From a virus (lineage: Duplodnaviria; Caudoviricetes): a DNA stretch of 64,000 bases. Made by a program: the position numbers and the translations under genes. A model generated the notes under the pieces. The model had not been told where the DNA came from, did no database searches, and saw only the letters and a list, made by a program, of their open reading frames with translations. Position 1 is the first letter of the stretch, and each line of letters begins with the position of its first letter. The DNA lies in the IMG/VR virus record IMGVR_UViG_2974597873_000001, positions 48,524-112,523 of that record. One strand, written 5' to 3'. Of the stretch, positions 47,269-49,897 are shown piece after piece.

Positions 47269-47583
47269 TCATACCAGAAGTTCTCGCTCTAGCAAGACCT
47301 TAGGCTTTGCCCCCACAATGGTCTTAGTGGGAACACCATTCTCAAAACGAATGAGAGTGGGTACTGACATGACACCATATTCTAGAGCAGACTCAGGGTT
47401 GGTGTCAAGGTCAATCTTGAGGATAGTTACATCCTTGTTCTCCTCTGCAAGAGACTCTAGCACAGGAGCGAGCTGACGACAAGGGCCACACCACGTTGCC
47501 CAGAAATCGACAATGACAGGCTTGGTACTATCAAGAACTTTAGCCTTGAAAGTCTTATCTGTTACTGTCTTCAGTGCTGCCAT
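47269..47583 (-). CDS. trxA: thioredoxin
   Basis: DFWATWCGPC, SVPTL. Confidence 0.95.
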   Translation of the reverse strand: MAALKTVTDKTFKAKVLDSTKPVIVDFWATWCGPCRQLAPVLESLAEENKDVTILKIDLDTNPESALEYGVMSVPTLIRFENGVPTKTIVGAKPKVLLERELLV

Positions 47584-47839: not shown

Positions 47840-47910
47840 ATAAGCTCATTTATCTATCCCTACAGGAGAGCCATCCCTGTCAAATATGCCCGTGCACAGG
47901 CAAGGATACG

Positions 47911-47995
47911 CGGAAGGTACGGGAATCGAACCCGTTAGACCTTGAGAGTCGTACTTGATTTCCAATCAAGCTGCTAGCCAAATTGCTTACCTTCC
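47911..47995 (-). tRNA. tRNA-Ser(GGA)
   Basis: loop TTGGAAA, long V-arm, G73. Confidence 0.85.
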
Positions 47996-48000
47996 AATAA

Positions 48001-48082
48001 GTGATGAGGCGGCAATCGAATCCGCTATTCTCCGAAGATCACACGTCCTTACGTGCCCAGGTCCCTTCCTGGCTCACATCAC
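48001..48082 (-). ncRNA. tRNA-like cloverleaf RNA with 4-nt loop instead of an anticodon
   Basis: stems GTGATG/CATCAC, CCAGG/CCTGG, CACGT-AAGG-ACGTG, cUUCGg arm, GCGG-ATTCGATTG-CCGC. Confidence 0.65.
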
Positions 48083-48172
48083 TGGCGGAGATGACAGGAT
48101 TTGAACCTGCGGGGCTTTTACACCCACTCGATTAGCAGTCGAGCGCCTTAAACCGGACTCAGCCACATCTCC
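48083..48172 (-). tRNA. tRNA-Ser(GCT)
   Basis: loop CTGCTAA; CCA encoded. Confidence 0.95.
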
Positions 48173-48178
48173 ATACTA

Positions 48179-48412
48179 CTACAGCTCTGCTAGAACCTGC
48201 CTAGCCGCTGCTGTAACCACAGCCTGAGCATCATCGTCCATACCGACGAAGAACTGAGACTTGTAAACATTCTTTCCGCCCCGCGTAACGTTCAAAGTGT
48301 ACATGAAGCCACGAGGACCCCGCATGATGCCACCGTGCTGAACTCTATTCAAAGTCCATTCACATCCATCAGGCGCCTTACCCAGAAACGGCATTACTGT
48401 CTTTCTCGGCAT
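48179..48412 (-). CDS. hypothetical protein
   Basis: GAAGGGGA RBS. Confidence 0.55.
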   Translation of the reverse strand: MPRKTVMPFLGKAPDGCEWTLNRVQHGGIMRGPRGFMYTLNVTRGGKNVYKSQFFVGMDDDAQAVVTAAARQVLAEL

Positions 48413-48432
48413 TATTTCCCCTTCTTTTGGAA

Positions 48433-48506
48433 GAGCGATACTACGGAATCGAACCGTATGCCATTCGCTTTGCAGGCGAACTCCAAATGCCTCATGGATC
48501 TCGGCT
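48433..48506 (-). tRNA. tRNA-Cys(GCA), irregular acceptor stem
   Basis: TTCGC-CTGCAAA-GCGAA; good T arm; acceptor pairs only with bulge/mismatch. Confidence 0.6.
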
Positions 48507-48518
48507 AGTACCGCATAG

Positions 48519-48615
48519 AGGGCTTGAGGATTTGCACCTCAGAGTAATAACGCTACCAACGACGAACGCGTGTGGGTATGGAGAATATCCCAACTCCTCT
48601 TACACTACGAAGCCC
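48519..48615 (-). ncRNA. expanded tRNA-like RNA
   Basis: GGGCT/AGCCC, D stem GTGT/ACAC with inserted hairpin, 10-nt anticodon-position loop, TGAGG-TGCAAAT-CCTCA. Confidence 0.55.
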
Positions 48616-48619
48616 AAAG

Positions 48620-48697
48620 TGGATTTGGTGGGAATCGAACCCACGTCCAAGAGCGTTCCGCGTGCGGCTTTCACCCCTGTCAAAACCTGACAAACCC
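48620..48697 (-). ncRNA. minimal tmRNA (tRNA-like domain only, no tag reading frame)
   Basis: GGGTTTG/CAAATCC-A with G3.U70; unpaired D region TCAGGTTTTGAC; P2 AGGGGTG/CGCTCTT; GGAC-GTGGG-TTCGATT-CCCAC. Confidence 0.8.
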
Positions 48698-48705
48698 TTT
48701 AGGAA

Positions 48706-48770
48706 ATACAGAGGCGTGCACCATCTACACTAACCCGGGAACACGGAGTCGAACCGCTCTTCCTCTGTAT
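48706..48770 (-). ncRNA. circularly permuted tRNA-elbow mimic
   Basis: 9-bp terminal stem ATACAGAGG/CCTCTGTAT enclosing T arm (GCGG-TTCGACT-CCGT) followed by D arm (TA-GTGT-AGATGGT-GCAC). Confidence 0.7.
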
Positions 48771-48774
48771 GACG

Positions 48775-48846
48775 TACCGGCAGAGGGATTCGAACCCCCG
48801 ACCCTCACTTTGTAAGAGTGACGCTCTCCCACTGAGCTATACCGGC
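48775..48846 (-). tRNA. tRNA-Val(TAC)
   Basis: loop CTTACAA. Confidence 0.95.
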
Positions 48847-49250
48847 TAGACGCCCCTTTCGGGGCGGTGGAACTATGGTAGCAGACGATCGCACTTAGTG
48901 CAAAGCTTGTACTTCTTGTGCGTGCCATCGTAGATGTGCTCACGAGTAGTAGGCACGTGCTTACCACCCTTTGTACACTTTACAGCATCGTCAGCACGAG
49001 TAGGCATACCGGGGGCGTTAGTGTCTTGAGCCTGCGCCATTAGCGAACCTCTTCCTCGTAGAAGACCTTCTCGTCACCCTCGGACTTACCGTCCTCAAGC
49101 ACCGCGTAACGGTTCTGGTAGCCGCCGCGACCCTCGTCACGGAACTTCACCTCACCATCGGTGCCATTGACGGTACGAACACGATCACCCTGACCGAACT
49201 TGAATCCCACGTTGTTCCCCTTCTAGTGTTTGGATACTAGATTACTTGCG

Positions 49251-49323
49251 TACCCCCGGCAGGATTCGAACCTGCGACCGTCAGCTTAGAAGGCTGCTGC
49301 TCTTTCCACTGAGCTACGGAGGC
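49251..49323 (-). tRNA. tRNA-Arg(TCT)
   Basis: loop CTTCTAA. Confidence 0.95.
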
Positions 49324-49345
49324 ATAGCCCCGAAGGGCCTTGTGC

Positions 49346-49897
49346 TTACCAGTCCCACCAACCACGACTAGCATACTTGGAATCGTTGTGAACGTCAACC
49401 TCTTCCCAGTCTTCGTACCAGAGATCCTGGTCCTCAAGGAGAGGATAATCGATCCAACGACCGTTGTCACGAATCGCGTTGTGAAGCTGGTTACGAACCT
49501 TACTACGCTCGGCTCCATGAGTCAAACGCTTGAAGAACTTGCCACTGACGTAGTCACCATCCTGGTCAAGCCAGTAGTTACAATGCTTGGCGGTACGCTG
49601 GTGCTCGTTGTGTTCCGCATCAGTACGATTACGGGGACGAGTACGCCATACGGACGGAGGCTGTTCCATGCGATCAAGAGTGCAAGGAACCTCTTCCGGC
49701 CAGATGCGATAGATGGGCCGCATGTAGATAAGCTCATCTTCCCAGTGCCATCCGTCCTTGGCAAGAGCACGACGGTAAATCGGCTCCTCACCAGTCTTCT
49801 CACGACAGTACACCGTGTGCGTATGACTAGCATGACGCGGAGACTTGGGATCATTGGCACGAACCCAGTACGGACGATCCTTCTTAGTACGAGACAA
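49346..49897 (-). CDS. hypothetical protein
   Basis: GAGGAGG RBS, TTG start, MSRT.KDRP motif. Confidence 0.7.
   Translation of the reverse strand: MSRTKKDRPYWVRANDPKSPRHASHTHTVYCREKTGEEPIYRRALAKDGWHWEDELIYMRPIYRIWPEEVPCTLDRMEQPPSVWRTRPRNRTDAEHNEHQRTAKHCNYWLDQDGDYVSGKFFKRLTHGAERSKVRNQLHNAIRDNGRWIDYPLLEDQDLWYEDWEEVDVHNDSKYASRGWWDW

What the first reader, a model, noticed from the sequence alone, without database searches (positions are those of the whole stretch)
48620..48697. 78-nt mini-tmRNA: complete tRNA-like domain, no mRNA domain
Seen: 5' GGGUUUG-UCAGGUUUUGAC-AGGGGUG ... CGCUCUU-GGAC-GUGGG-UUCGAUU-CCCAC-CAAAUCC-A 3'. This has the tmRNA hallmarks: G3.U70 and A73 alanine identity, no D stem, GG...UUGAC before helix P2, and GGAC before the T arm. 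P2 is closed by only 16 nt (AAAGCCGCACGCGGAA) instead of the pseudoknots and tag ORF. Known: SmpB binds this domain; some mycobacteriophages encode full tmRNAs; tag-less tmRNAs are known from jakobid mitochondria. Inference: an alanylated SmpB decoy, or a factor that acts on stalled ribosomes without adding a degradation tag, useful when host nucleases cleave tRNA or mRNA.
Basis: partly seen in the sequence, partly recalled or inferred. Interest (0 to 1): 0.85.

Follow-up and report, generated by a model that had tools for sequence, protein, structure and literature searches.

The report
Phage tag-less mini-tmRNA gene
This Streptomyces-type phage carries a real 78-base gene for only the alanine-accepting, tRNA-like end of the bacterial ribosome-rescue RNA (tmRNA). 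The type was already reported once, in mycobacteriophage DS6A, is common but unannotated in phages, and probably interferes with or bypasses the host's rescue-and-tagging system.

Summary
Window 48620-48697 (minus strand) matches the Rfam tmRNA model end to end (64.5 bits, gathering score 47), with the 304-position middle replaced by a 16-nt cap.

It is not a recent deletion. The same element sits about 80-135 nt after tRNA-Val(tac) in Streptomyces phages of the Boydwoodruffvirinae, unannotated in GenBank.

A covariance model built here finds 78 full-length copies (61 distinct) in IMG/VR phage contigs:
- 97% of cells are paired, and 15 of 23 pairs show compensatory changes.
- G1-C72, G2-C71 and G3.U70 never vary.
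- 46 of the 78 copies have no tRNA gene within 4 kb.

The model also hits the 'TLD only' tmRNA of mycobacteriophage DS6A (Hudson et al. 2014) at 59.7 bits with the same cap. This is therefore a new member of a known kind.

The 131-135 kb (BE-type) relatives carry both this mini and a separate 267-283-nt tmRNA with an ...AFALAA tag. The window's genome has only the mini, and no SmpB, Pth, ArfB, RtcB or CCA-adding enzyme.

The function is inferred, not shown. The RNA is probably charged with alanine and bound by host SmpB, and competes with host tmRNA. Productive tag-less rescue or alanine tailing remains open.

Earlier agents of this scan reached the same reading on other phage genomes.

The parts
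48620..48697 (-). Mini-tmRNA (TLD-only tmRNA), G1 at 48697 to discriminator A73 at 48620
   Evidence: RF00023 at 64.5 bits over model 1-374. Own model R1 at 99.2 bits.
48691..48697 (-). Acceptor stem, 5' strand GGGUUUG (G3 at 48695)
   Evidence: Pairs with 48621-48627. G1-C72, G2-C71 and G3.U70 are invariant in 61 distinct family members; pairs 4-7 covary.
48680..48690 (-). D-loop analogue UCAGGUUUUGA, with no D stem. It holds the conserved GG and the U(U/C)GA of the neck.
   Evidence: Aligned to the unpaired 'AucuGGaUUC' plus G-A of the Rfam consensus. GG is near-invariant in the family.
48672..48679 (-). P2 helix, 5' strand CAGGGGUG
   Evidence: All 8 pairs show compensatory changes across the family.
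48656..48671 (-). 16-nt cap AAAGCCGCACGCGGAA: an A-rich internal loop plus a 3-bp CCG/CGG hairpin with loop CACG. It replaces the pseudoknots and tag ORF.
   Evidence: The same cap is present in DS6A. A cap-agnostic scan shows related A-rich-bulge-plus-GC-hairpin caps in most of 91 distinct minis.
48648..48655 (-). P2 helix, 3' strand CGCUCUUG
48645..48647 (-). GAC of the conserved GGAC neck; its first G, at 48648, pairs with C19.
   Evidence: The Rfam model pairs G17-A52 and A18-G51 as the tmRNA tandem G.A.
48628..48644 (-). T arm GUGGG-UUCGAUU-CCCAC
48621..48627 (-). Acceptor stem, 3' strand CAAAUCC (U70 at 48623)
48774..48846 (-). tRNA-Val(tac), the conserved upstream neighbour (77 nt upstream). 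It marks the syntenic slot in relatives.

Best explanation
This is a functional phage gene for a TLD-only (CDS-less) tmRNA of the family typified by mycobacteriophage DS6A.

The inferred life cycle is as follows. The RNA is transcribed with the co-oriented tRNA array. Host tRNA-processing enzymes trim it, and the host enzyme adds CCA, because CCA is not encoded. Host AlaRS charges it with alanine, reading G1-C72, G2-C71, G3.U70 and A73. Host SmpB binds it through the UUGAC/GGAC neck and the GG/T-loop elbow.

As an Ala-RNA.SmpB.EF-Tu complex it competes with host tmRNA for SmpB and for ribosomes stalled with an empty A site. It has no resume codon or tag ORF, so no ssrA degron is added. The net effect is a dominant-negative block of host ssrA tagging during infection.

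What is shown here: the identity as a tmRNA tRNA-like domain, family membership, purifying selection on the structure and on the alanine identity set, and the absence of phage-encoded partner proteins. What is inferred: expression, charging, SmpB binding and inhibition of tagging.
For: - Identity: RF00023 scores 64.5 bits, above the gathering score, end to end with the middle deleted.
- Family: model R1 finds 78 full-length copies of 77-82 nt at 48-106 bits in IMG/VR loci, then a gap down to ordinary tRNAs at 35 bits or less.
- Selection: 97.3% of cells are paired, 15 of 23 pairs have compensatory changes, and slid controls give 42-51% paired.
- Alanine identity: G1-C72, G2-C71 and G3.U70 are invariant in 61 of 61 distinct sequences. 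In an independent cap-agnostic scan, 88 of 91 have GGG/UCC (G3.U70) and all have A73.
- Precedent: the DS6A 'TLD only' tmRNA is hit at 59.7 bits with the same cap.
- Literature: PMC4131195, citing Mao et al. 2009, reports that a similar mini-TLD strongly inhibits tmRNA in E. coli, 'perhaps acting by titrating SmpB'.
- Literature: a TLD fragment with SmpB works as a tRNA mimic on the ribosome in vitro (Shimizu and Ueda 2006, as cited in PMC3929946).
- Dependence on the host: the phage genome encodes no SmpB.
Against: - Nothing here shows that the RNA is expressed, charged or bound by SmpB.
- According to PMC4131195, inhibition by the engineered mini-TLD did not need chargeability. Pure SmpB titration therefore does not explain why the alanine identity set never varies. 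That points to a role on the ribosome, which could be productive rather than inhibitory.
- The BE-type relatives keep the mini alongside their own full tmRNA, which carries a canonical ...AFALAA degron. This is awkward for a simple inhibitor of trans-translation.
- In those 15 records the mini lacks the UCGAC/GGAC neck yet stays under structural selection.
- The alignments were fitted to the model, and the loci were ascertained with sequence patterns.
Confidence: 0.5

Rival explanations
1. Productive tag-less rescue or alanine tailing. The Ala-mini-tmRNA.SmpB complex enters stalled ribosomes and accepts the nascent chain. It adds one alanine, or several in repeated rounds. Host factors (ArfB, Pth after drop-off, recycling) then free the ribosome. 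This raises ribosome availability for the phage without templated ssrA tagging.
For: - The alanine identity set never varies, although charging was not needed for inhibition in the E. coli experiment cited in PMC4131195.
- TLD plus SmpB supports template-free polyalanine synthesis in vitro (PMC3929946).
- The mini coexists with a full phage tmRNA in BE-type phages, which fits complementary rather than antagonistic roles.
- CDS-less tmRNAs persist in jakobid mitochondria and in some plastids (PMC11915505).
Against: - There is no stop codon, so release needs another factor, and the phage encodes no Pth or RF-1/ArfB domain.
- The only reported experiment with a mini-TLD in cells showed inhibition of tmRNA.
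Confidence: 0.27
2. An SmpB-independent role for an alanine-accepting tRNA-like RNA. Possibilities are a sponge for AlaRS or EF-Tu, an alanyl donor for a non-ribosomal transferase, or a decoy for a host tRNA- or tmRNA-directed defence nuclease.
For: - In 15 records that also carry a full tmRNA, the mini has lost the UCGAC/GGAC neck. It still keeps G3.U70, the T arm and the cap, with 96.8% of cells paired and 10 of 23 pairs compensatory.
- The A-rich-loop-plus-GC-hairpin cap is more conserved than simple loop closure would need.
Against: - In the window and most mini-only phages the tmRNA-specific neck is kept: 18-19 of 26 have UCGAC/GGAC.
- No conserved neighbouring protein gene points to a dedicated partner.
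- The 15 records are essentially two lineages, so the contrast is weak.
Confidence: 0.13
3. An uncharged tRNA-like processing signal ('punctuation') that directs RNase P or RNase Z cleavage of the tRNA-array transcript.
For: - In this window it lies inside a co-oriented tRNA array, between tRNA-Val and another tRNA-like element.
- An earlier scan note read a shorter anticodon-less element in another phage this way (e1-5930242).
Against: - 46 of 78 family loci have no tRNA within 4 kb. Some sit in replication modules, and DS6A's lies between protein genes.
- A processing signal does not need an invariant G3.U70/A73 or the tmRNA neck.
Confidence: 0.07
4. A decaying remnant of a full tmRNA (a recent internal deletion) or of a tRNA-Ala, with no function.
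For: ARAGORN does not call it, and the fold z-score is unremarkable at -0.83.
Against: - 61 distinct sequences keep all four helices through compensatory changes.
- It holds the same slot across diverged phage genera.
- It is present beside an intact full tmRNA.
- None was found among the 80 retrieved pattern hits in bacterial genomes.
Confidence: 0.03

Closest known systems
'TLD only' (CDS-less) tmRNA of mycobacteriophage DS6A (tmRNA Website tmID 11587 / Phage__Mycobacterium.9; Hudson, Lau and Williams 2014, PMC4131195; PMC11915505)
   Same: - Size is ~80 nt.
- The architecture is the same: acceptor with G3.U70/A73, UCGAC neck, 7-8 bp P2, and T arm.
- The cap is the same: GAAAACCGCACGCGGUAC in DS6A, GAAAGCCGCACGCGGAAC here.
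- It is hit by the model built from this window's clade at 59.7 bits.
- It is phage-borne, and CCA is not encoded.
   Different: - DS6A is a 60-kb temperate Mycobacterium phage, and its element stands alone between protein genes.
- Here it lies in the ~30-gene tRNA array of a 112.5-kb Streptomyces-type phage with terminal repeats.
- The 5' neck is UUGAC rather than UCGAC; on the 3' side the window has GGAC where DS6A reads GCAC.
- The DS6A element scores just under the Rfam gathering score (43.2 bits). This one scores above it.
Canonical bacterial and phage tmRNA (Rfam RF00023), including the 267-283-nt tmRNAs of BE-type Streptomyces phages
   Same: The tRNA-like domain is the same: alanine identity, no D stem, the GAC/GGAC neck with tandem G.A, and the T arm. 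It scores above the Rfam gathering score.
   Different: - It has no pseudoknots, resume codon or tag ORF. The BE-type phage tmRNAs encode (A/D)NSNVAFALAA or ANSKFAFALAA.
- It cannot template a tag or supply a stop codon.
CDS-less tmRNAs of jakobid mitochondria and Mallomonadaceae plastids (PMC11915505)
   Same: They are reduced to the tRNA-like domain and conserved despite having no tag reading frame.
   Different: They are organellar, co-occur with a dedicated nucleus-encoded SmpB, and were reduced independently. No Rfam mitochondrial-tmRNA match outscored RF00023 here.
Engineered TLD fragments used in vitro and in crystals (Shimizu and Ueda 2006; Bessho et al. 2007; Neubauer et al. 2012, as cited in PMC3929946)
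   Same: The 5' and 3' parts of the tRNA-like domain are joined by a short loop. These constructs bind SmpB and EF-Tu, enter the A site and accept peptide. This gives a mechanistic template for what the natural RNA could do.
   Different: They are artificial and capped with UUCG. The natural family has a conserved A-rich loop plus GC hairpin of unknown role.

Membership tests
tmRNA (Rfam RF00023), tRNA-like domain | Covariance-model score at or above the curated gathering score | tested here: met
   64.5 bits against 47, E 7e-23, model positions 1-374.
tmRNA (Rfam RF00023), tRNA-like domain | 7-bp acceptor stem with G3.U70 and discriminator A73 (alanine identity) | tested here: met
   GGGUUUG/CAAAUCC followed by A. 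Invariant across 61 distinct homologues.
tmRNA (Rfam RF00023), tRNA-like domain | No D stem, a GG-containing D-loop analogue, and the UCGAC...GGAC neck with tandem G.A | tested here: met
   UCAGGUUUUGAC ... GGAC, aligned to the model's non-canonical G-A/A-G pairs. The window has UUGAC, one base off the consensus UCGAC.
tmRNA (Rfam RF00023), tRNA-like domain | T arm with 5 bp and a UUCGAnU loop | tested here: met
   GUGGG-UUCGAUU-CCCAC.
tmRNA (canonical, full function) | mRNA-like domain with resume codon, tag ORF, stop codon and pseudoknots | tested here: not met
   304 model positions are replaced by a 16-nt cap. ARAGORN's 'tmRNA*' 48088-48713 is a spurious merge across two tRNA calls.
tmRNA (canonical, full function) | Alanylation by AlaRS, and binding by SmpB and EF-Tu | not testable with these tools
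   Only the sequence determinants are present. The phage genome has no SmpB.
Phage TLD-only tmRNA (DS6A type) | Homology to the DS6A element | tested here: met
   Model R1, built from the window, pSt2308, GiJojo and LuckySocke, hits JN698994 28478-28558 at 59.7 bits (E 9e-14) with the same cap.
Phage TLD-only tmRNA (DS6A type) | P2 closed by a short cap, total length ~75-86 nt, phage-borne | tested here: met
   78 nt in a complete 112.5-kb virus record. 78 IMG/VR copies were found, and none among the 80 retrieved pattern hits in bacterial genomes.
Phage TLD-only tmRNA (DS6A type) | Inhibits host tmRNA function | not testable with these tools
   Known only from the literature statement on a similar engineered molecule.
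tRNA-Ala (RF00005) | Anticodon arm with a UGC/GGC anticodon, and a D arm | tested here: not met
   No anticodon loop is present. ARAGORN calls no tRNA here, and the tRNA model is outscored by tmRNA. The phage's true tRNA-Ala is at 52871-52944.
Mitochondrial tmRNA (jakobid type) | Best match to the mitochondrial tmRNA covariance model | tested here: inconclusive
   No such match is listed at E<=1. Any overlapping match from the same clan was suppressed as lower-scoring than RF00023.

The most novel reading that the evidence does not exclude
The natural mini-tmRNA may not be a passive decoy but a template-free alanine tailer. With host SmpB it would re-enter the stalled ribosome repeatedly, as TLD.SmpB does in polyalanine synthesis in vitro. 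That would give non-stop products a C-terminal Ala or poly-Ala end instead of the ssrA tag, and so redirect their fate. In the BE-type phages, which also encode a full tmRNA, the mini with its altered neck may have moved to a different partner.
Probability: 0.1. Interest if true: 0.8.

Novelty: new member of a known kind. Interest (0 to 1): 0.38.

Why it matters
It shows that phages widely carry a minimal, alanine-accepting tmRNA head, so the host ribosome-rescue and tagging pathway is a recurrent target or resource during infection.

The gene is invisible to ARAGORN and unannotated in GenBank. In one relative a 'hypothetical protein' is called over it. Annotation pipelines therefore miss it.

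The family offers a natural 78-nt tool for studying or inhibiting trans-translation in actinobacteria. The contrast between mini-only phages and phages with both a mini and a full tmRNA gives a ready comparative test of what the mini does.

For this window, though, it is one more member of a type already reported in 2014 and already found repeatedly by this scan.

Tried and rejected
- RNA evidence: the look-up of sequencing runs listed no RNA holder for 47900-49400, so expression could not be examined.
- Folding energy: the z-score is -0.83, which is uninformative.
- Partner genes: clustering ORFs within 3 kb of 78 copies gave no neighbour shared by more than 15 loci. One subgroup simply sits in a replication module with a DnaB-like helicase, endonuclease VII and a primase.
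- Phage-encoded rescue, repair or maturation genes: searches of the window's own genome for SmpB, Pth, RF-1/ArfB, RtcB and CCA-adding enzyme all found nothing.
- Synteny with the BE-type full-tmRNA slot: window ORF 49346-49897 is not related to the RNase H gene next to the Tomas tmRNA. The idea was dropped.
- Bacterial genomes: the cap-based pattern hit only class II tRNAs (Ser, Sec), and model R1 gave 0 hits.
- The spacer 48698-48773 as a permuted or extra tRNA-like element: it is not conserved in relatives and has z -0.74.
- Mao et al. 2009 could not be read because it is not held. Its result is cited only through PMC4131195.
- The first MAFFT alignment of trimmed sequences misplaced a gap at the 5' end. 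The model was therefore built from the four gap-free sequences.
- Complex prediction was not used because it does not take RNA.

Full report
**What is there.**

The Rfam tmRNA model (RF00023) matches 48617-48697(-) from its first to its last position at 64.5 bits (gathering score 47, E 7e-23). The 304 central model positions, which hold the pseudoknots and tag ORF, are replaced by 12 unaligned bases. The tRNA model scores lower on this stretch, and ARAGORN calls no tRNA here. ARAGORN's only call is a 626-nt 'tmRNA*' at 48088-48713 that runs across two other tRNA calls and is spurious.

The minimum-free-energy fold gives the four helices: acceptor, P2, a 3-bp cap hairpin and the T arm. Its z-score is only -0.83, so thermodynamics alone says nothing.

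**Where the window comes from.** The window is bases 48524-112523 of a complete 112,523-bp virus record with direct terminal repeats. It has about 52% GC and about 29 tRNA genes, all on the minus strand. Its nearest GenBank relatives are Streptomyces phages of the Stanwilliamsviridae/Boydwoodruffvirinae.

**Not a recent deletion.** BLASTN and Rfam find the same ~80-nt element in GiJojo, LuckySocke, Alone3, pSt2308, Naboo, Tomas, Riptide and Jay2Jay. In every case it lies about 80-135 nt downstream of tRNA-Val(tac), as in the window, where the gap is 77 nt. None of these records annotates it. GiJojo calls a 'hypothetical protein' that starts on it.

A whole-record search shows that the 131-135-kb BE-type phages also carry a separate 267-283-nt tmRNA about 10 kb away. 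It scores 91-107 bits, is annotated in Tomas, and encodes the tags DNSNVAFALAA, ANSNVAFALAA or ANSKFAFALAA. GiJojo, pSt2308 and the window's own genome have only the mini.

**A large, selected family.**
- A covariance model (R1: 79 positions, 23 pairs) was built from the window and three relatives.
- R1 finds 78 full-length copies of 77-82 nt at 48-106 bits. The next hits are ordinary tRNAs at 35 bits or less.
- On the 61 distinct sequences, 97.3% of cells form standard pairs, against 42-51% when partners are slid. Compensatory changes occur in 15 of 23 pairs, including all 8 pairs of P2.
- G1-C72, G2-C71 and G3.U70 never vary.

Two caveats apply. The alignment was fitted to the model, and the invariance of the cap and of the T-stem GGG/CCC is partly imposed by the search pattern.

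A second scan, agnostic about the cap (TCGAC...GGAC plus the T arm), returned 91 distinct minis of 75-86 nt. Of these, 88 have GGG/UCC ends (G3.U70), all have A73, and 86 have C74. Their caps vary, but most are again an A-rich bulge followed by a short GC hairpin. About a quarter encode CCA. The window's copy does not: it continues ACUU.

The same cap pattern in 185,579 bacterial and archaeal genomes hit only class II tRNAs (tRNA-Ser, tRNA-Sec). R1 found nothing in the 80 retrieved loci. Within the limits of row-capped scans, the family is therefore viral.

**Context.**
- 31 of 78 copies lie in co-oriented tRNA arrays.
- 46 of 78 have no tRNA within 4 kb. These include complete 35-65-kb phages and proviruses.
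- No neighbouring ORF is shared by more than 15 loci.
- One subgroup sits among a DnaB-like helicase, endonuclease VII and a primase.

This argues against a mere processing signal for tRNA transcripts, and against a dedicated adjacent protein partner.

The window's genome encodes no SmpB, peptidyl-tRNA hydrolase, RF-1/ArfB domain, RtcB or CCA-adding enzyme. Maturation, charging and any ribosomal action must therefore use host factors.

**Comparison with what is known.** Hudson, Lau and Williams (2014) list 'Mycobacterium phage DS6A (TLD only)'. [quoted passage not shown] The 2025 tmRNA database paper repeats this and adds CDS-less plastid forms (PMC11915505).

I located the DS6A element at JN698994 28478-28560 (RF00023 at 43.2 bits). 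Model R1 hits it at 59.7 bits, and the cap is nearly identical: GAAAACCGCACGCGGUAC against GAAAGCCGCACGCGGAAC. The window's element is therefore a new member of that known kind.

A full-text search found no paper that describes the wider family. Notes from this scan show that earlier agents reached the same DS6A-family reading on several other phage genomes. Those notes are not independent evidence, and I re-derived each step here.

**How it most likely works.**

Shown:
- It is a tmRNA tRNA-like domain.
- Its four helices and the full alanine identity set are under purifying selection.
- The tmRNA-specific neck is kept in the window (UUGAC/GGAC) and in 18-19 of 26 mini-only records examined.

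Established from the literature:
- The tRNA-like domain binds AlaRS, EF-Tu and SmpB.
- A TLD fragment with SmpB mimics a whole tRNA in the A and P sites.
- TLD with SmpB supports polyalanine synthesis without mRNA (PMC3929946).

Inferred: the phage RNA is processed, given CCA, alanylated, bound by host SmpB and delivered to ribosomes with an empty A site. There it competes with host tmRNA and adds no degron.

I rate competition with, and inhibition of, host ssrA tagging as the most likely net effect (about 0.5).

Two observations pull towards a role on the ribosome rather than pure SmpB titration:
1. The alanine identity set never varies, although charging was dispensable for inhibition in the cited experiment.
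2. BE-type phages keep the mini next to their own degron-encoding tmRNA.

Productive tag-less rescue or alanine tailing is therefore a serious rival (about 0.27).

**An unexplained detail.** In all 15 records with a full tmRNA that I examined, the mini lacks the UCGAC/GGAC neck. It reads, for example, GUGAU/UGAA in Tomas and GUAAG/UGUA in Jay2Jay. It still keeps G3.U70, and 96.8% of cells are paired with 10 of 23 pairs compensatory. This could mean reduced competition for SmpB, or a shifted partner. However, the 15 records represent essentially two lineages, so the contrast is weak.

**Verdict.**
- Novelty: a new member of a known kind.
- Interest is moderate to low for this window. The family as a whole remains under-described and experimentally open.

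Noticed in passing
window 48088-48713 (-): ARAGORN reports a 626-nt permuted 'tmRNA*' with tag AARQVLAEL that spans tRNA-Ser(gct) and another tRNA call. This is a spurious merge triggered by the mini. ARAGORN did not call the mini correctly in any of 78 loci.
   Followed up: yes
window 48433-48514 (-): The 82-nt 'tRNA-Arg(tcg)' is called only by ARAGORN. It has an acceptor stem and a T arm but gets no Rfam tRNA match even at E<=1, and its minimum-free-energy fold is not a cloverleaf. It may be an aberrant or degenerate tRNA-like element 105 nt downstream of the mini.
   Followed up: partly
window 48698-48773 (-): The spacer between tRNA-Val and the mini contains a T-arm-like GAGCGGUUCGACUCC closed by a CAGAGG/CCUCUG stem. 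It is not conserved in relatives, and its z-score is -0.74.
   Followed up: partly
L009:1367-1493 (LuckySocke) and L011:1353-1478 (Alone3): A 126-nt match to the tRNA model (37 bits) lies between tRNA-Val and the mini. It looks like a tRNA with a ~50-nt insertion (possibly an intron) and is unannotated in both GenBank records.
   Followed up: no
L007:1502-1744 (GiJojo gene 44): An annotated 'hypothetical protein' starts two bases before the mini-tmRNA and runs through it. It is probably a miscalled CDS.
   Followed up: partly
L135:348-620, L136:350-632, L137:363-629 (Tomas, Jay2Jay, Riptide): The BE-type phage tmRNAs are unusually short (267-283 nt). Their tags DNSNVAFALAA, ANSNVAFALAA and ANSKFAFALAA end in the classic ...ALAA degron.
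   Followed up: partly
A5/A7 alignments; records with a full tmRNA (for example L006, L008, L010, L052, L021): In all 15 records that also encode a full tmRNA, the mini has a diverged neck (no UCGAC/GGAC). Among mini-only records, 18-19 of 26 keep it. The structure is still maintained by compensatory changes.
   Followed up: partly
window 47269-47583 (-): A thioredoxin gene (Pfam E 8e-30) is embedded in the tRNA array. It is conserved at the same place in GiJojo, LuckySocke, Alone3 and pSt2308.
   Followed up: no
L021 (IMG/VR contig of 340,433 bp): A jumbo phage carries a 362-nt tmRNA (87.8 bits) and also a mini flanked by two tRNA-Ala genes. This is a second lineage with both forms.
   Followed up: no
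L133:49300-50000 (DS6A gp76): DS6A, the published TLD-only carrier, encodes an RtcB-like RNA ligase. The window's genome has none.
   Followed up: partly
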